64,000 nt of DNA from Eledone cirrhosa (taxonomy: Eukaryota), in the NCBI GenBank assembly GCA_964016885.1, contig OZ024745.1, forward strand, positions 43,710,001-43,774,000, written 5' to 3'. Under the pieces are notes generated by a model. That model was not told where the DNA came from, made no database searches, and worked only from the letters and a program-made list of their open reading frames with translations. Positions 13,033 to 53,294 of this stretch are shown here, piece after piece (positions within the stretch are counted from its first letter, which is position 1; the number at the start of each line of letters is the position of its first letter). Made by a program: the position numbers and the translations under genes.

Positions 13033-14181
13033 CTAAAAGATGGAAAGTAATAAATAAAAAGATGAAGTAAACATTGAAATTGTAAATCACAAAACAAATT
13101 GTCATTTACCATGTCCATTAGCAAGAGGAAAATGCACCAAAGATCAAGTTCAGAATAATGGTACAGAAATTCACAAATAATGCTGTATCAAAAAGCATTA
13201 TCTTATAGTTTCAAATTAATCAGACTCTTATTCAACCCATTTGATACCAAACCACTTGAAACCACCCCCGTTTCTGTGAAAAAAAAACAAAAACTTGCCT
13301 GTTTTAAAATTGTAATACTCATTAAAACCTTCCATCATAATATTATCTAATAACTTTTTGTTATTCTTCCAATGTTTGATTATTTTCAAAATTAATTGAA
13401 ACACAGGCACTATTTTTCATTAGAAACACATTTTAAACTAAAACCACTGGTTTCTCATGTAATCTACTTTAAATATACAATTGAGTAGAAATTAATCTAA
13501 ATTAGCAAATTATGAAGATGATATTGTTACTAATAGTAATAATTTGTTACATAAGCATGTAACAGCCATGTATTTCCCAAAAGTATTAGGAATGAATGCA
13601 AAACCGTTTCAACTAAGTCAAGAACTAAATTCAGCAAGAAGTTACCAGCAGCTACAAATATATAATAATGTATTTGAGTATGTCCAAAGAAAATTTATGA
13701 TTCTGAGAAAAAAATATTTTCCAACAATCTTTTAAATTAAAAAATGAAATTAAAGAGTTAGACAATAGATCAAAATCCTCAACTAAAATTGATTTAACTG
13801 GTTAAGGGTAAAGGTGAAGAAACACTACTTTTCACCTTCAAAAGATTTTGGCTAGGTGCTGACATTTTGGTAAATAACAATGTACAGCACTGCAGTAAAA
13901 AACTGAGAAATTGATAACTAACTGTGTCTCATTTTGGCATAAATGGGAGATTTCTGAAAGTCAATTGTTTAAAAATCTAAAACTGACTGCAGAGATAAAT
14001 CTGTCTGATATTAAAACTAAGAAATGGTTGAGTAGCAAGAACCATAATCTGCCAAGAACAAGCAGTACCACCAGTTACAGCACTAATATTGATTTTATTA
14101 AAGCAAGTGCCTGGTAAAAAGAAGTGACTGCAAGCTGGTTGAATATGGCTAGAGTATGCTTCTGTGATTATGTGTAGAAGA

Positions 14182-14830
<649 letters not shown>

Positions 14831-14934
14831 TAGAGAAACTAAGAGTGAATAAAAACAACTGTATGTGAAAAAGAAAAATGAAAGTTAAGGAGAAACATCT
14901 AGAGAGATAAGAGCGAGCAAAAGAAATGAGAATA

Positions 14935-15690
14935 AAGGAAAGTGTGTTGAGAGTATGGAAGGAAAGTGTGTTGAGAGTATGGAAGGAAAGCGTGTTGAGA
15001 GTATGGAAGGAAAGCGTGTTGAGAGTATGGAAGGAAAGCGTGTTGAGAGTATGGAAGGAAAGCGTGTTGAGAGTATGGAAGGAAAGCGTGTTGAGAGTAT
15101 GGAAGGAAAGCGTGTTGAGAGTATGGAAGGAAAGCGTGTTGAGAGTATGGAAGGAAAGCGTGGTGAGAGTATGGAAGGAAAGCGTGTTGAGAGTATGGAA
15201 GGAAAGCGTGTTGAGAGTATGGAAGGAAAGCGTGTTGAGAGTATGGAAGGAAAGCGTGTTGAGAGTATGGAAGGAAAGCGTGGTGAGAGTATGGAAGGAA
15301 AGCGTGGTGAGAGTATGGAAGGAAAGCGTGGTGAGAGTATGGAAGGAAAGCGTGGTGAGAGTATGGAAGGAAAGCGTGGTGAGAGTATGGAAGGAAAGCG
15401 TGGTGAGAGTATGGAAGGAAAGTGTGTTGAGAGTATGGAAGGAAAGTGTGTTGAGAGTATGGAAGGAAAGTGTGTTGAGAGTATGGAAGGAAAGTGTGTT
15501 GAGAGTATGGAAGGAAAGTGTGTTGAGAGTATGGAAGGAAAGTGTGTTGAGAGTATGGAAGGAAAGTGTGTTGAGAGTATGGAAGGAAAGTGTGTTGAGA
15601 GTATGGAAGGAAAGTGTGTTGAGAGTATGGAAGGAAAGTGTGGTGAGAGTATGGAAGGAAAGTGTGGTGAGAGTATGGAAGGAAAGTGTG
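14935..15690. repeat. 24-bp minisatellite, ~31 copies (gagagtatggaaggaaagYgtgKt)
   Basis: Read directly; explains the repetitive ORFs at 14899-15786. Confidence 0.97.
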
Positions 15691-16708
15691 TAGTGAAAGC
15701 AGAAAGAAAATTAGAAGAAAGGGCTCAAAGTTGAAAAGAAGGTTTATAGATTGGAAGAAAGTTTTGTTTTTGATAAGTAATAACAAATTTCAAAAGTATA
15801 TTTTCTCTTCAGAAAGAAAATACTGGAAGAGAGGTCAAACAAGGAAGGAATATACAAATATAATTTTATATTTCAAATTAAATAAAAGAGAAAAACTGCA
15901 TGTAAAATAAACATTAGTGAATTGCTACCTTTAGCAAAATTGATTTTTTTTTTTTTTTTTTTTTTTTTACATTGGCAAGTAAAGTGGGGATTGGATTAAT
16001 GTAAGAATATTATAAATATTTCTTATATCGACCCTAAAGTAAAATCTAAGCTATGTAGGATTTGAATTTGGAGCATAAAAGAGTGAATCTAAGTACTCCA
16101 GTTGTTTACTTTTCAAAAGTATAGAATTTATTAACACTCATACAGAATTTCTATTACTGAAGATAAGGTATTATATGTGGCAATATAGAAAATTGTTACT
16201 AATCTACCAAAGTAATTAATATCTATAGGTATAAAATAAGAATAGTCCTGTTATAGGAATATATTAGAAAAAAAAAACAAGCATGCTCTTTCTAGAAATT
16301 TCTATTGCTAAAGTATGCTATGTTCTCAAAATTCTTGTAAAGAATAACAAGACTGATTTACAATTTACTTCTATTGAATCATATATATGAACTCTTAACA
16401 TGAAGCACCACATGAAACCACATTAGTACTATGGTACTATGAATTCAAAATTAAAGTCTTTACTCTAATACTGAAAAATTTCCAACAATCTGTCCACTTG
16501 TAAAGATACTATAAACATTTGAATTAACAAATCATAAAACCACATAAGATATTTTTAAAACATTAAACAATCCTGACTGTATCACATCAAAATTTGAAGT
16601 CATCACTCAAATAGGGAACATTTTTACAACAAGTTCTCTATTAGCAAAGATACTAGAAGCATTTAAGAGTTAAAGACAATTTAGAAAAGAGAAATTCAAA
16701 GAACTTAC

Positions 16709-26328: not shown

Positions 26329-26616
<288 letters not shown>

Positions 26617-31530: not shown

Positions 31531-32344
31531 ATGGTGGTGGTGGTGGTAGATTTGTTGAATGTCTTTCTTAATCATAACATTAGAAAAAGGAAAAGGATAT
31601 AGATTTAGAGACAAAATTGCAAACTAAATTTAAAATTATAAAATATATATAAAAGTCTTTAAAAATATCTATTATACTAAAATAAATGAAAGCATAATTT
31701 TCATATGTTTATTCCAGTAAAAAGGTAATATTTCTCTAAATATTTTCATCATATGCCAGATGTAGTTGAACAAGATTCGTGTGGATCTAAAGATAATGCT
31801 ATGCATTTTTTTCTTTTTGCTTTAAAACAAAGAAAAATGTTTAAAGTTAAATGGGAAATGAGGTAAAATTTGAAAAGAATTAAATCTAAGAAAATGAAAA
31901 ATCTTTATAAGAAATGTCTAATCTTTGCTTAAGAATAAAAAAAATTATGACATCTTGCAAAATGAAAGCATGTCAGTGCCAGAGATAACATAATGCAGCA
32001 TTATCTTTTGGAGAAGGCAGAACTATTTATATTACTGTGACAGCATTGGACAATGATATCATCAGTGCAAGAAGGAAGGATTTTTGGACTATAATAAAAT
32101 TCAAAATAAGCAAATTTCTCTCTGCTCAGGGACCAATATGAATTGTAAGATATAAAGGCCCGCTGAAAACTAGAACATAAACCAAGCAGCTAGGATTGCA
32201 TTGAGTTATTTTACTAAAAATTAAGAAAAAAAAAATGAATCATGCAACAAAAAATTAAAAGAAAAAAAAGAATGAAAAGGTTAAGAAAGCTTGGTGTGTG
32301 GCAGTGGCAGCCACAGGTAACAAGAAAACCAGAGAGTTGGTTAC

Positions 32345-32359
32345 CTTCCCATCAGAGTT
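32345..32359 (-). CDS. zip: Candidate 15-nt microexon (NSDGK) between switch II and the relay helix
   Basis: tttttctttgccttctactctgctgcag acceptor, AAG/gtaacc donor, phase 0/0, ~73-nt AG-free zone, UGC motifs near the 3' splice site, UGCAUG ~100 nt downstream. Confidence 0.6.
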
Positions 32360-32706
32360 CTGCAGCAGAGTAGAAGGCAAAGAAAAATTTAAAGAAAATA
32401 TAAAATAAATTTCAGTAAGAAAAGGGGAATGAAACTTGATATGAAAAGGGCTTGAAGATTAAGTCACAGATTGCTGCGCTTATGGGTTGAAATAGGATTG
32501 TTCTCGGTAGAAGGCTAACCTTTTTCAAACAACATATTTTGAATACCCTAGCCCTCCATAAACATGAAAACTACAAAAAAATATATTTCAGATTAGACAA
32601 AACTTCAGCAACTTCCATTCTCATTTGAAAAAAAAAAATAATAAATAAGTGTTTACTATCTCTATGATAATTAAATTATAAAGCTTCATAGATATTATTG
32701 TAGGCA

Positions 32707-36283: not shown

Positions 36284-36436
36284 CTTGAAAATTTCAAATC
36301 CAGCTATATCCAAAATACCAATGAAAGAGGCACCTTGGCGTTTAGTCCGGTCCAATGATTTGTTGATGCGTGTGACTAGCCATTTGAACATGCGTTCATA
36401 GCAGGCTTTAGAGATTGCTTCAACTGAAAATTCAAC
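36284..36436 (-). CDS. zip: NMHC exon: [21 protein letters not shown]...[12 protein letters not shown] (switch II)
   Basis: 153 nt, cag / gtgaaa, ends phase 0. Confidence 0.96.
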
Positions 36437-37229: not shown

Positions 37230-40200
37230 TTAGAGATGCCTACTGGCAAGGCGGGTCTTCTCTGTTACTGAGTACCGCCAAAGGTCACGGTCCAGTGACA
37301 TTGTCTTGGAGAGGTGTAAGTGTGTGAGGTCGGAGTTTATCAGCTCATCCCATGTTTTTCTAGGTCTGCCTATTCCGTGGCTACCGTCTATCTTTATTGC
37401 CCTGCACTTTGTAATACAGCTATCGACTTTCATGCGCATCACGTGTCCATACCAACGCAGCCTTCTCTCGAGTAAACAACATCTGATCCCTCTTATCTCT
37501 AATTTTTTCCTTAGTTCGTTTATGCTTTGCCGTTCACGTATATTACTGTTACACATCCAGCGGAGCATGCAAGCTTCGTTCCTCTCTAGTCTGCGTATAT
37601 CCTCTGCACACAATGCCCAGGTCTCACTACCATGCAACATTGCTGTTCGTATGCAGGCATCGTACAACCTGCCTTTCATTTTTAGGGAGAACCCTTTAGC
37701 AGCTAATAGTGGTATAAGCTCTCTGAACTTTTTCCAACCAGTTCTGACTCTAGCTACAGTACTTTCAGAGCACCCTCCCCCACTGCTGATTTTATCGCCC
37801 AGGTAACGGAAGCTGTCCACTATTTCTATAGAACCCTCTGCGCAATTGAAAGAGCTAGTATTTTGTGGGCACTTGCTGCTACTTATTGCACCAGAACACC
37901 GGCCACATGTAAAGTCTATGTTCTTAGTTAGCTTACCTGTGATCCCACTACATCTTTTATGCACCCATACTTTGCATTTAGGACATAAGATGGAGTTTCT
38001 ACCTACGCCTTTCCTACATGCCAAGCACGACCATTTCCCAGAAGGGACCGCCGCCTTGTTTTCTTTCCTACAAACTAGAACTTTGGTCTTAGCCAGGTTA
38101 ATTTTAAGTCCTTTTGACTCTAGGCCGTGCTTCCATGTTTGGAATTTCTTCTCTAGCTCGGCCATTGATTCCGCTATGAGTGTCAGGTCGTCTGCGTATA
38201 GGAGTTCCCATGGGCAGCCTGTCTTGAACTCCTCTGTTATAGCCTGAAGGGCAATAATAAATAGTAGGGGGCTGAGAACAGAGCCCTGATGGACGCCAAC
38301 TTTTACGCTAAACTCTTCACTATATTCGTTGTTAATTCTAACCTTGCTGACTGTTTCTTTATACATGGCTTGTATAGCCCTCACAAGCCATTCGTCAACG
38401 CCTAGTTTTCTAAGAGCCCACCAGATAATGGAGCGGGGGACTCTGTCGAAGGCTTTCTCCAGGTCGACAAAAGCTAAGTAGAGGGGTTTACCTTTAGCTA
38501 GGTACTTCTCCTGTAGTTGTCGTACTATGAAAAGAGCGTCTGTGGTGCTTTTGCCTGACACAAACCCGAACTGCATTTCATCTAGATCAATTCTCTCTCT
38601 GATTAGTTGCGCTATTACTTTTTCCGTGACCTTCATGACCTGGTCGATTAATTTAATGCCTCTATAGTTTCTCCTATCTAGGGCGTCTCCTTTACCCTTA
38701 TAACAGTTAACGATGATGCTGCTATGCCAGTCCTTCGGAACAACCCCATTCTGTACGACTTGGTTAACTATGCGGGTGACCATGGTGTGTCCCACCGTGC
38801 CAGATGCCTTCAGCATCTCAGCAACTATTTCCGAAGGCCCAGCCGCCTTACCAGTCTTCATATCCTTGATTGCCTTACTTATTATACTCCCCTCGACTAA
38901 CACTGCTGGTCCCTCTATCGGGTCGATATGGGGGAGACTGTCTTTCTCCCATTTATTCTCCTCATTTAGTAGCCTTTCATAGTGACACTTCCAAGCTACC
39001 TTTTTATCAGTGTCGGTGATGGCAAGTATGCCATCATCGTTAAGTACACACTTCTCCCCGACAATATCACGGTTTTCCTTGACGCATTGCCTGGCAATCC
39101 TGAACACCTCACGTTTTTGGTCATCGCGTTGTAGAACATGCTTGAACTTTCTTTCCTCAGCTTCCCTTCTTGCTAAGTACACTTCTCTCCTAGCTTCCCT
39201 CCTGGCCACTTGATAGTCTACTCTACTTCCCCCATCCCGCCATACTTTCCAAGCCTGCCTTTTGGCCTTAATTGACCCCTCCACCCTACTGTTCCACCAC
39301 CATGTTACTCTCCTCCTGCCTACAGGCCTGCTCCAGCCACAGACTTCGTCTGTCGCCAACAGCAGGTTTGCTTTCAGAAATTTCCACTGTCCCTCTATAT
39401 TGTCCGATTCTAGATGCTCTTCCTTACTGTCGAAAGCATCAAGTAATATGCTTTGAAATTTATTTCTGGCTGTGGGGTCCTTTAGTTTCCATATTTTCCT
39501 CCTGAGGATAGTCCTCTTCTGCTGTCGGGTACGTCTCGTCCTGACTATGAGGTCGCTAATTATCAGTCTATGTTGGGAGGTGCATTCTTCATGGGGGAGG
39601 GATTTAGTGTTTACAACAGACACTCTGTCACGTCTTCTGGTAAGGATATAATCTACCTGGCTTGTGTGTTCCCCGGATCTATAGGTGATCAGGTGATTGT
39701 CACGTTTTTTGAAGTTAGTGTTACAGATAGTTAGGTTATTTGCATCACAGTATTCCAGGATTCTGGAGCCTTCCTCATTTCTAGTACCAAACCCATAGCC
39801 TCCATGGATTTCGCCGTAGCCGTCACAATGTTGTCCAACGTGACCATTTAGGTCGCCTGCAATAATTATATAGTCACTGTCAGATATTTGGGAGGTAGTT
39901 AGCAACAGTGTCTCATAGAATCTGTCTTTTATAGTGCCGGGCAGTCCGGATTGGGGTGCGTACGCAGATATTACTGTCACCGTAGTTCTATTGAGGACAA
40001 GTCTTATTTTCATTATTCTGTCGTTCACTCTATTTACGTCTATTATCTTATCTGCCCACTTTTCTGCTACCATGATTCCTACTCCACCCAGCCCATCGTC
40101 GTTTCCCACCCAGAAAAGCTTATAACATCGTTTTTTACCCTCAATGAATCTAGCAGACCCACCCCTCCACCTGGTCTCTTGAATACAACAAACATCGACC

Positions 40201-40508
40201 TCCTTACGTTCAAGCATTTCTACAACCTCGTTAGCGCGACCCTTTAGGGTGCCTACATTTATGGTACCAACTCTGAAGTTTTGGGTTGCGTTTGGAGGGT
40301 GGGGGTGGTGGGGGGCGGGAGGAGATAGGGTTATGTTAGCCATCCGCGGACGAAACAAAGAGGAGTGCTTGCATTCTCGTCCACGAGGTGAATTTGACTT
40401 TAACTTTGGCATTTTCGCTCTGAGCGTCCAGATTTTTCTCTCCCTTCCACTCTCCAGGATTCCGCAGTCCGTCCGTCCATCCATCCATCCATCATATATC
40501 GAAGGCAA
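37230..40508 (-). CDS. RTE polyprotein: APE endonuclease + reverse transcriptase + PHD-like Cys/His finger (intact ORF; plausible ATG starts at 40412 or 40343)
   Basis: Endonuclease motifs GTINVGTL, CIQETRW, GDLNGHVG, VDYIL, SQHRL; RT motifs YRGIKL, FVDLEKAFDRV, GVHQGSVLSP, YADD, FRYLG; C-terminal RLRWYGHVMR and GRPRKTW typical of RTE. Confidence 0.96.
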   Translation of the reverse strand: MPSIYDGWMDGRTDCGILESGRERKIWTLRAKMPKLKSNSPRGRECKHSSLFRPRMANITLSPPAPHHPHPPNATQNFRVGTINVGTLKGRANEVVEMLERKEVDVCCIQETRWRGGSARFIEGKKRCYKLFWVGNDDGLGGVGIMVAEKWADKIIDVNRVNDRIMKIRLVLNRTTVTVISAYAPQSGLPGTIKDRFYETLLLTTSQISDSDYIIIAGDLNGHVGQHCDGYGEIHGGYGFGTRNEEGSRILEYCDANNLTICNTNFKKRDNHLITYRSGEHTSQVDYILTRRRDRVSVVNTKSLPHEECTSQHRLIISDLIVRTRRTRQQKRTILRRKIWKLKDPTARNKFQSILLDAFDSKEEHLESDNIEGQWKFLKANLLLATDEVCGWSRPVGRRRVTWWWNSRVEGSIKAKRQAWKVWRDGGSRVDYQVARREARREVYLARREAEERKFKHVLQRDDQKREVFRIARQCVKENRDIVGEKCVLNDDGILAITDTDKKVAWKCHYERLLNEENKWEKDSLPHIDPIEGPAVLVEGSIISKAIKDMKTGKAAGPSEIVAEMLKASGTVGHTMVTRIVNQVVQNGVVPKDWHSSIIVNCYKGKGDALDRRNYRGIKLIDQVMKVTEKVIAQLIRERIDLDEMQFGFVSGKSTTDALFIVRQLQEKYLAKGKPLYLAFVDLEKAFDRVPRSIIWWALRKLGVDEWLVRAIQAMYKETVSKVRINNEYSEEFSVKVGVHQGSVLSPLLFIIALQAITEEFKTGCPWELLYADDLTLIAESMAELEKKFQTWKHGLESKGLKINLAKTKVLVCRKENKAAVPSGKWSCLACRKGVGRNSILCPKCKVWVHKRCSGITGKLTKNIDFTCGRCSGAISSSKCPQNTSSFNCAEGSIEIVDSFRYLGDKISSGGGCSESTVARVRTGWKKFRELIPLLAAKGFSLKMKGRLYDACIRTAMLHGSETWALCAEDIRRLERNEACMLRWMCNSNIRERQSINELRKKLEIRGIRCCLLERRLRWYGHVMRMKVDSCITKCRAIKIDGSHGIGRPRKTWDELINSDLTHLHLSKTMSLDRDLWRYSVTEKTRLASRHL

Positions 40509-40702
40509 CCGGGCAAGCGATAGTATAGGCCTCTGGCTTATGATTTGGTCCGCGTAATAATAATAATGGTGATGCGTGGGGGTGGGGGGCTCTGGCTTAT
40601 AATAATGGTGGTGATGCGTGGGTGGGGGGGCTCTGGCTTATGATTGGTCCACGTATTAAGTATGGTGGCGTGTGGGGGCGGGAGGGAGGGGTGTGGGGTA
40701 GC

Positions 40703-41425
40703 TAGCTGGAAGGTTATGAATGTTTAACAAGCGATTTAACAAAAAGCAAAACTGCAAGATTTGTTCTGTTCAATACGACAAAAACACCGTATTTAAACCT
40801 TAAATAGATAACAAAAAATACAGATTTCGGATTTTGCGAGATTGGATGTTTGTTTGGACTATGTACGAAATTGAGCGTGGAATGGAGAGAAAAATTTGTA
40901 CTTTACGATTTACATGGGTACACCATAGTAGAAATAATTGAAGCAGCAGTGGATTGGCGAAAGTGAATAAACATGAAGGAGAACTTATCTTATATATATA
41001 TATGTGTGTGTGTGTGTGTAGCTAAGAGAGAGATAGAGGGGAAGAAAGAGAGGGGGGAAGGGGGAGAGATATTGTGGCTGACCGCAGCCCCTCGTGGAGT
41101 AGCAGGAGGGTGAAGGGGTGGAGCGGATTTTTGACTTTCAAGTAGCATACTATATATATTCAAAGTAATTTATAAGTAGAATGGGAAGGATTTTGTTTTT
41201 TTGTTTGAGAATACGATAGAATTAAGATAGCTGGAAGGTTATGAATGTTTAACAAGCGATTTAACAAAAAGCAAAACTGCAAGATTTGTTCTGTTCAATA
41301 CGACAAAAACACCGTATTTAAACCTTAAATAGATAACAAAAAATACAGATTTCGGATTTTGCGAGATTGGATGTTTGTTTGGACTATGTACGAAATTGAG
41401 CGTGGAATGGAGAGAAAAATTTGTA
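40703..41425. repeat. Two identical 198-bp direct repeats (40703-40900 and 41228-41425; period 525 bp) in the RTE 5' region
   Basis: Read directly: tagctggaaggttatgaatg...gagagaaaaatttgta occurs twice. Confidence 0.93.
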
Positions 41426-41501
41426 TATATATATATAAACAGAATTATAAATAACCATTAGCAAAGAGCACAGAATTAATAGAAATAAATAAGTAACATA
41501 C

Positions 41502-53094: not shown

Positions 53095-53142
53095 CTTTTT
53101 CATGTATACCATGCTTGTGACTGACTCCTCGCTGACCACACC
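53095..53142 (-). CDS. zip: Candidate alternative loop-1 exon, 48 nt (GVVSEESVTSMVYMKK)
   Basis: ttattaacttag acceptor, CTAAC branch-like motif ~30 nt upstream, AAG/gttggc donor, phase 0/0, no stop codon. Confidence 0.65.
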
Positions 53143-53276: not shown

Positions 53277-53294
53277 GAGATTCAGCTCCTTGCT
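53277..53294 (-). CDS. zip: Candidate alternative loop-1 microexon, 18 nt (SKELNL)
   Basis: ctctctttatccccttttag acceptor, gtaagt donor, phase 0/0, ~57-nt AG-free zone, UGCAUG motifs on both sides. Confidence 0.75.

What the first reader, a model, noticed from the sequence alone, without database searches (positions are those of the whole stretch)
32241..32436. Candidate neural-type 15-nt microexon inserting NSDGK between switch II and the relay helix of myosin II
Seen: in the 9.7-kb intron after ...DIAGFEIFK the minus strand reads tttttctttgccttctactctgctgcag|AACTCTGATGGGAAG|gtaacc (exon 32345-32359). It is phase 0/0, with a ~73-nt AG-free zone, a branch-like TACTGAA ~50 nt upstream, UGC motifs at about -5, -8 and -20, and a UGCAUG at 32241-32246 downstream. 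Established: UGC next to the 3' splice site plus a long AG-exclusion zone is the signature of SRRM4/eMIC-dependent neural microexons, and the known NMHC inserts are in loops 1 and 2. This junction is tightly length-conserved in class II myosins, while class XVIII myosins carry an insert here. Inference: inclusion gives FEIFK-NSDGK-MNSFEQ and could tune or uncouple ATP hydrolysis and the lever swing in a tissue-specific isoform. Use of the microexon in place of the 171-nt relay exon would also stay in frame. I know of no described microexon at this position but cannot verify novelty.
Basis: partly seen in the sequence, partly recalled or inferred. Interest (0 to 1): 0.85.

Follow-up and report, generated by a model that had tools for sequence, protein, structure and literature searches.

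The report
Mollusc myosin-II switch-to-relay microexon
An octopus non-muscle myosin II gene carries a 15-base optional exon, also present in database gene models of two other octopuses and matched by inserts at the same spot in oysters, mussels and snails, that adds five residues at a point of the motor whose length almost never varies; it is likely nerve-enriched and would likely slow or uncouple the motor.

Summary
Observation confirmed; the exon is almost certainly real. The 15-nt exon (32345-32359, minus strand) lies in an octopod non-muscle myosin II gene. NCBI models of Octopus bimaculoides and O. sinensis already contain FEIFK-NSDGK-MNSFEQ beside skipped forms. Inserts of 4-11 residues at this junction occur in 12 of 42 named mollusc species seen, including oyster SNEGK/SSEGK and mussel RAEGK(+VTNAP, matching the window's read-through VTNSL). 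The octopus exon is therefore likely shared with bivalves. The spacing here is fixed in 142 of 143 diverse myosins; myosin-18, a non-motor, has a 6-residue insert about two residues away. AlphaFold keeps the relay helix intact and builds the insert as a lower-confidence turn. Not shown: neural specificity (no read data obtained; some motifs are common in this gene), eMIC dependence, or any effect on ATPase. Replacing the relay exon has no support (0 of 345 proteins). Best reading: a tissue-regulated third splice site in NMII, besides loops 1 and 2, that likely dampens the motor. It is annotated but not described in ten literature searches: a new variant of a known kind. Interest 0.62.

The parts
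36284..36436 (-). Upstream constitutive exon (153 nt) ending in switch II, …[11 protein letters not shown]
   Evidence: (100% identical to O. bimaculoides P0132)
32411..32417 (-). Branch-point-like TACTGAA, about -53; imperfect match to CURAY
   Evidence: function inferred
32362..32434 (-). 73-nt AG-free, pyrimidine-rich zone with UGC at -20 (32379-32377), -8 (32367-32365) and -5 (32364-32362)
32345..32359 (-). 15-nt cassette microexon encoding NSDGK, phase 0/0; inserts between Dictyostelium-equivalent K462 and V463
   Evidence: identical insert in 6 NCBI Octopus models; numbering; single copy
32330..32344 (-). Donor gtaacc and in-frame read-through VTNSL to a weak GT at 32329; resembles the annotated Mytilus edulis extension VTNAP; no Octopus model seen uses it
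32241..32246 (-). UGCAUG (RBFOX-type motif) 99 nt downstream of the microexon
   Evidence: background about 0.5 per kb on this strand, so weak alone
26419..26589 (-). Downstream constitutive relay exon (171 nt, 57 aa) beginning MNSFEQ
53277..53294 (-). Loop-1 cassette exon (18 nt, SKELNL) of the same gene; UGCAUG at -54, -42 and +91, no UGC near the acceptor
53095..53142 (-). Second loop-1 cassette exon (48 nt, GVVSEESVTSMVYMKK)

Best explanation
A 15-nt optional exon in octopod non-muscle myosin II, present in both included and skipped gene models of two Octopus species and likely inherited from the ancestor of cephalopods and bivalves, is skipped in most transcript assemblies and is likely included mainly in neurons, where it adds a five-residue polar turn between switch II and the relay helix that would likely loosen their coupling and give a slower, tension-holding myosin. 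Shown: sequence, annotation of both forms, inserts at the same junction in other molluscs, length invariance elsewhere. Inferred: (a) homology with the oyster and mussel exon (~0.8); (b) neural enrichment through an eMIC/Srrm234-type acceptor (long AG-free zone, clustered UGC, weak donor), perhaps helped by RBFOX (~0.6); (c) the motor still folds but switch II closure is passed less tightly to the relay and converter, lowering actin-activated ATPase and gliding speed (~0.5), so the isoform could act as a brake or cross-linker in mixed filaments, as vertebrate NM IIA2 does.
For: Included and skipped NCBI models in O. bimaculoides and O. sinensis. Inserts at the same junction in 12 of 42 named mollusc species, with both forms in 11 of those 12. 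Same length and a [DE]GK ending in octopus, Ostrea, Saccostrea and Mytilus; the shared downstream VTN implies the same non-consensus +4A/+5C donor, found in only 1 of 29 other donors of this gene. Only 1 of 26 assembly-derived mollusc proteins carries an insert, so skipping is the usual state. The cis layout matches fly eMIC exons, including a weak 5' site (PMC8797185 section 10). Spacing is fixed in 142 of 143 diverse myosins, and none of the 60 PDB myosins shown has room for an insert. Drosophila myosin-18, with a 6-residue insert at Dd N464/S465, neither binds ATP nor hydrolyses it (PMC3122231). The AlphaFold model (mean pLDDT 88.7) keeps strand 439-445 and relay helix 462-492, with the insert block at pLDDT 70. 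Insert length (4-11 aa) and sequence vary across molluscs, which fits an effect of added length more than a conserved binding motif.
Against: No junction reads or tissue data were obtained, so inclusion in this species and its tissue are untested. Gene models are automated predictions and their numbers do not measure abundance. 30 of 42 named species showed no insert in the models seen, including O. vulgaris, Argonauta and all squid/cuttlefish. Several motifs are common in this gene, and UGCAUG elements also act in muscle (PMC3082911). Many inserts come from bivalves, whose RNA data are (recalled) mostly non-neural. The two residues flanking the insertion point are the most variable columns of this segment, and the inserts are mostly polar: this suggests an exposed, tolerant turn rather than the buried site proposed for myosin-18. 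Myosin-18 also has active-site substitutions that could explain its inactivity without the insert. AlphaFold says nothing about kinetics.
Confidence: 0.45

Rival explanations
1. The exon is real and regulated but only fine-tunes the motor, or adds a small surface patch (binding or phosphorylation site) on an exposed turn; the motor stays fully coupled.
For: The flanking residues are the most variable of the segment; inserts are mostly polar; the model keeps the relay helix unshifted; the [DE]GK ending is shared by octopus, oysters and mussel.
Against: Length is fixed in 142 of 143 myosins although the residues vary, which implies a geometric constraint; insert sequences of gastropods and clams share little with NSDGK.
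Confidence: 0.3
2. The exon is tissue-regulated but in muscle or another non-neural tissue, driven by RBFOX-type factors rather than eMIC.
For: UGCAUG at +99; the element acts in neural and muscle cells (PMC3082911); inserts are annotated in many bivalves; one ark-clam-like assembly has the insert on its main path (P0206).
Against: Three clustered UGCs and a long AG-free zone are the eMIC layout, unlike this gene's loop-1 cassette, which has UGCAUGs but no UGC; 8 of 11 Aplysia models carry the insert (Aplysia RNA data are mostly neural, recalled).
Confidence: 0.2
3. The molluscan inserts are not one ancestral exon but repeated, independent gains in a permissive intron; some are rare, near-neutral splicing noise or donor-side extensions picked up by automated annotation.
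For: Lengths of 4, 5, 8, 10 and 11 aa with little shared sequence; several start with V or A, which could be GT/GC donor read-through; patchy distribution (12 of 42); the final K is partly forced by the AAG|GT consensus; recurrent exon gain is common (10.64898/2026.09.05.749416).
Against: NSDGK is identical in three octopod genomes; same length and [DE]GK in oysters and mussel; shared VTN read-through; single-copy locus with a full set of splice signals.
Confidence: 0.15
4. The microexon replaces the 171-nt relay exon, giving an in-frame relay-less protein.
For: Both exons are phase 0/0, so the frame would hold.
Against: 0 of 345 proteins spanning the region lack the relay exon, and every insert is followed by the relay sequence; losing the relay helix would probably unfold the motor (established knowledge).
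Confidence: 0.02

Closest known systems
Vertebrate NMHC II inserts: loop 1 (B1/N30, C1) and loop 2 (A2, B2, C2)
   Same: Optional in-frame cassette exons in the NMII motor domain, several of them neural; N30 and A2 depend on RBFOX/UGCAUG; NM IIA2 loses motor activity and slows non-inserted myosin in mixtures (PMC10480317).
   Different: Those lie in long, variable surface loops. This one lies between switch II and the relay helix, where length is fixed in 142 of 143 myosins. It is shorter (15 nt) and seen here as a recurring insert only in molluscs.
Myosin-18 switch II insertion (6 aa between Dd N464 and S465)
   Same: Nearly the same place and size (ours is 5 aa at Dd K462/V463); found in a myosin with no ATPase (PMC3122231).
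   Different: In myosin-18 it is a fixed feature among many active-site changes. Here it is optional and the active-site motifs ([23 protein letters not shown]) are intact. No homology is claimed.
Drosophila Mhc exon 9 (mutually exclusive relay exons)
   Same: Splicing that alters switch II-relay-converter communication; exon 9 encodes 57 aa (PMC13068310), the same length as this gene's relay exon.
   Different: Muscle myosin, mutually exclusive exons of equal length that swap residues; here a cassette adds residues in front of an unchanged relay.
eMIC/SRRM3-4 (Srrm234)-dependent neural microexons
   Same: 3-27 nt length, frame-preserving, long AG-free zone, UGC near the acceptor; weak donor as in fly.
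   Different: Flanking introns are long (3.9 and 5.8 kb; fly eMIC exons have short ones); the branch site is imperfect; neural inclusion and eMIC dependence are untested.

Membership tests
Non-muscle myosin II heavy chain (zipper/MYH9-10-14 type) | Closest relatives are NMII; class II motor fold | tested here: met
   Top hits are octopus, argonaut and squid NMII, 87-91% identical on a tail exon; model matches human NM2A/2B/2C and smooth muscle myosin.
Cassette microexon | 3-27 nt exon with AG/GT sites that keeps the frame | tested here: met
Cassette microexon | Both included and skipped transcripts exist | tested here: met
   NCBI models of O. bimaculoides and O. sinensis: automated models in related species, not reads from this species.
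eMIC/SRRM-dependent neural microexon | UGC between polypyrimidine tract and AG | tested here: met
   -20, -8, -5; unique cluster among 30 exons.
eMIC/SRRM-dependent neural microexon | Long AG-exclusion zone and strong distal branch point | tested here: inconclusive
   73 nt, but 5 of 29 other exons have 72 nt or more; branch CTGAA imperfect.
eMIC/SRRM-dependent neural microexon | Neural-specific inclusion | tested here: inconclusive
   No read-level data obtained; skipping in 25 of 26 assembly-derived proteins of unknown tissue shows only that inclusion is not the default.
eMIC/SRRM-dependent neural microexon | Inclusion depends on the eMIC domain | not testable with these tools
   Needs knockdown or a minigene; the genome search for PF15230 was uninformative.
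Known NMII loop-1/loop-2 inserts | Insert lies in loop 1 or loop 2 | tested here: not met
   It maps to Dd K462/V463, after switch II.
Myosin-18 (pseudo-motor) | Altered P-loop, switch I and switch II residues; constitutive inserts | tested here: not met
   Canonical motifs in window exons; the insert is optional.
Myosin-18 (pseudo-motor) | No actin-activated ATPase | not testable with these tools
   Needs an enzyme assay.

The most novel reading that the evidence does not exclude
Molluscs (perhaps other spiralians, given the unnamed distant NMII P0263 with STDKSAIR at the same junction) have kept since the Cambrian a neuron-specific splicing switch that turns ordinary non-muscle myosin II into a myosin-18-like, ATP-uncoupled actin cross-linker by inserting residues between switch II and the relay helix: a regulated on/off switch in the motor core, and a natural isogenic pair for testing whether this insert is what silenced myosin-18.
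Probability: 0.2. Interest if true: 0.85.

Novelty: new variant of a known kind. Interest (0 to 1): 0.62.

Why it matters
Described splice variants of NMII motors change loops 1 and 2. This marks a third site, inside the switch II-relay path that converts ATP hydrolysis into the lever swing, whose length is nearly invariant across myosins. The 2011 myosin-18 paper proposed, without a test in the passages read, that a 6-residue insert there helps inactivate the motor. The octopus pair differs by five residues only and tests this directly. If homology with bivalves holds, it is also a deeply conserved protostome microexon, where most such exons turn over fast (PMC8797185). The sequence itself is already in automated annotations, which limits the novelty to its recognition, conservation and meaning.

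Tried and rejected
Sequencing runs: no RNA holder listed (8 rows, 2 studies); no reads were laid, so junction use and tissue stay open. Genomic DNA of orthologous introns in other molluscs was not obtained, so splice-signal conservation is inferred from proteins only. Genome search for the eMIC-containing family PF15230: no match, and no control genome matched either, so uninformative. RNA folding of the acceptor region: no unusual structure, z = -0.11. First AlphaFold run failed (mean pLDDT 57.2) and was set aside for the deeper alignment. No insert-free model was folded, so there is no paired comparison. Profile search with insert-bearing pieces (best 120 of 8,000 scored) found no new inserts among 72 new proteins. 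A mouse Myh9 6-nt neural microexon (PMC8797185 Table S2) was considered as a vertebrate counterpart and rejected: the A2 locus coordinates with a recalled assembly offset of about 115.8 kb place it in the loop-2 intron. Three single vertebrate models with VSYE, ASKI or VG at this junction look like donor read-through and were left out of the mollusc count; not tested. An indel map of the motor domain was biased by isoform sampling and not used. Earlier scan findings: none. Two papers asked for by recalled id were not held. Relay-exon replacement rejected.

Full report
Observation. The AG-free zone is 73 nt, UGC lies at -20, -8 and -5, and UGCAUG at +99. It is the only strict microexon-like site in the intron, against 0 of 100 local shuffles, though the filter was chosen after seeing the site. 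The locus is single-copy. Taken one by one the motifs are modest: 5 of 29 other exons have an AG-free zone of 72 nt or more, 4 of 29 have UGCAUG within 300 nt downstream, and the -5 UGC is part of the acceptor. Only the UGC cluster is unique. Some of the 29 boundaries were placed automatically and may be a few bases off.

The gene. A tail exon finds octopus, argonaut and squid non-muscle myosin II at 87-91% identity, and the exons align along O. bimaculoides NMII. The genome is thus an octopod distinct from O. bimaculoides. P-loop, switch I and switch II are canonical.

The exon is used. The best hit itself, O. bimaculoides XP_052834540.1, reads FEIFK-NSDGK-MNSFEQ. Of 15 listed members (of 22) of that cluster, 6 carry NSDGK: three of O. 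bimaculoides and three of O. sinensis. The other 9, including all four O. vulgaris models, skip it. These are automated models, which normally rest on RNA evidence (established knowledge); I obtained no reads for this species.

It extends beyond cephalopods. Counting by hand over, 12 of 42 named mollusc species show an insert at exactly this junction: NSDGK (two Octopus), SNEGK (Ostrea edulis), SSEGK (Saccostrea cucullata), RAEGK and RAEGKVTNAP (Mytilus edulis), PSDVGSGEAP (Ylistrum), AHLMGSGEKVR (Dreissena), AWTFPFGSITC (Ruditapes), VWPFHPGTVMR (Mercenaria), SKDK (Aplysia), PRDGSKRWKA (Lymnaea) and RRKDNERA (Littorina). Eleven of the 12 also have skipped models. An unnamed assembly 94% identical to Tegillarca has RDGQQ, and an unnamed NMII only about 52% identical to any stored one has STDKSAIR. 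The other 30 species showed none in the models seen; large clusters were listed only in part (15 rows each). None of 6 squid or cuttlefish-type proteins has it. None of 55 further cluster members has it, 37 of them crustacean, tick or spider. The window's read-through after NSDGK is VTNSL; Mytilus has an annotated extension VTNAP. This implies the same non-consensus donor (+4A, +5C), seen in 1 of 29 other donors of the gene. Same length, [DE]GK and VTN make homology of the octopus, oyster and mussel exon likely (~0.8, inference), which would date it to the Cambrian (date recalled). The longer clam and snail inserts may be the same exon, independent gains or donor extensions; I had no genomic DNA to tell. 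Only 1 of 26 assembly-derived mollusc proteins has an insert, so skipping is the usual state.

Position in the motor. Against Dictyostelium myosin II the insert falls between K462 and V463 (switch II is 454-459, PMC7582316). Among 150 diverse myosin representatives, 143 cover the motif; the spacing is four residues in 142 and five in one. None of the 60 PDB myosins shown (of 150 matched) has room for an insert. Drosophila myosin-18 has a 6-residue insert at N464/S465, proposed to be buried, and shows no ATP binding or ATPase, but it also has active-site substitutions (PMC3122231). Against a severe effect: the two residues flanking the site are the most variable columns of the segment and most inserts are polar. 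An AlphaFold model of the O. bimaculoides motor with the insert (63 sequences, mean pLDDT 88.7, pTM 0.85) keeps the strand before switch II and the relay helix (462-492). It builds the insert as a short turn at pLDDT about 70 and matches smooth muscle myosin at 1.8-1.9 A rmsd. The inserted protein probably folds; its kinetics are unknown.

Mechanism. I commit to a tissue-regulated cassette, most likely neural, that lengthens the link from switch II to the relay helix and so weakens the coupling of hydrolysis and Pi release to the lever swing, giving a slow or tension-holding NMII. Shown: sequence, both forms in models, spread in molluscs, length invariance. Inferred: neural enrichment (~0.6), from a layout that matches fly eMIC exons, weak donor included (PMC8797185 section 10; UGC context in 10.1101/2024.09.17.613571); and reduced motor activity (~0.5), by analogy with myosin-18 and with brain NM IIA2, which lacks motor activity and slows the normal form (PMC10480317). 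Rivals are mild tuning on an exposed turn, non-neural RBFOX control, and repeated near-neutral gains. Replacement of the relay exon has no support (0 of 345).

Comparison and novelty. It works like the vertebrate NMII loop inserts but is not one of them by position. It resembles the myosin-18 insert by place and size but is optional, in an otherwise canonical motor. It has the cis marks of an eMIC microexon, but membership is untested. A mouse Myh9 6-nt neural microexon appears to lie in the loop-2 intron (plus a recalled assembly offset). Ten literature searches listed no paper whose title or abstract start describes a splice insert at this site; most subscription journals are not covered.

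What I saw of each paper. PMC3122231: abstract and passages. PMC8797185: passages, section 10 and a search of its table archive. 10.1101/2024.09.17.613571: abstract, introduction and section 10. PMC10480317: abstract and section 4. PMC3082911, PMC13158602, PMC3912159, PMC13068310, PMC7582316 and 10.64898/2026.09.05.749416: passages. PMC9699675: passages and the supplement list only. PMC12626420 (12 of 13 files), PMC12626424 (12 files) and PMC7935315 (12 of 19 files): supplement searches only. PMC12871342: search listing only. The 2019 eMIC paper: nothing, cited only through PMC8797185. Unseen supplements of the 2026 preprint (O. bimaculoides tissue-specific exons) and the octopus long-read annotation in PMC9699675 may already list this exon and its tissue.

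Verdict. Real, already in automated annotation, apparently undescribed, likely ancient in molluscs and placed at a mechanically sensitive site. New variant of a known kind; interest 0.62. The boldest reading, a neuronal switch to a myosin-18-like cross-linker, has probability about 0.2 and would merit 0.85.

Noticed in passing
window 53277-53294 and 53095-53142 (-): Two tandem loop-1 cassette exons (SKELNL; GVVSEESVTSMVYMKK). The 18-nt one has look-alikes across molluscs (SKDINL, HKDVNL, NKDFNL, NREINL, TKELNL) and three nearby UGCAUG: a conserved counterpart of the vertebrate B1/N30 site. In the Octopus models seen the two never occur together; one cuttlefish model has both.
   Followed up: partly
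window 37233-40637 (-): An open frame of 1,135 codons that looks like an endonuclease/reverse-transcriptase of a non-LTR retrotransposon (label recalled), apparently intact, in the intron upstream of the switch II exon.
   Followed up: no
P0263 (unnamed assembly): A distant NMII (about 52% identical to any stored one) with STDKSAIR at the same junction, similar to Aplysia SKDK; may extend the exon beyond molluscs or be an independent gain.
   Followed up: partly
window 40717-40902 and 41242-41457 (-): Two near-identical intronic stretches about 525 nt apart (same translation): a local duplication or an assembly repeat.
   Followed up: no
window 14000-15730: Long purine-rich simple and tandem repeats (27-nt-like unit) that give a strong GC skew.
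   Followed up: no
P0209, P0238, P0241: Single vertebrate models with 2-4 extra residues at this junction (VSYE, ASKI, VG); probably donor read-through or model errors.
   Followed up: no
PMC8797185 Table S2 (mouse Myh9 MmuEX0030386): A 6-nt neural microexon in mouse Myh9 that appears to share the loop-2 intron with exon A2.
   Followed up: partly
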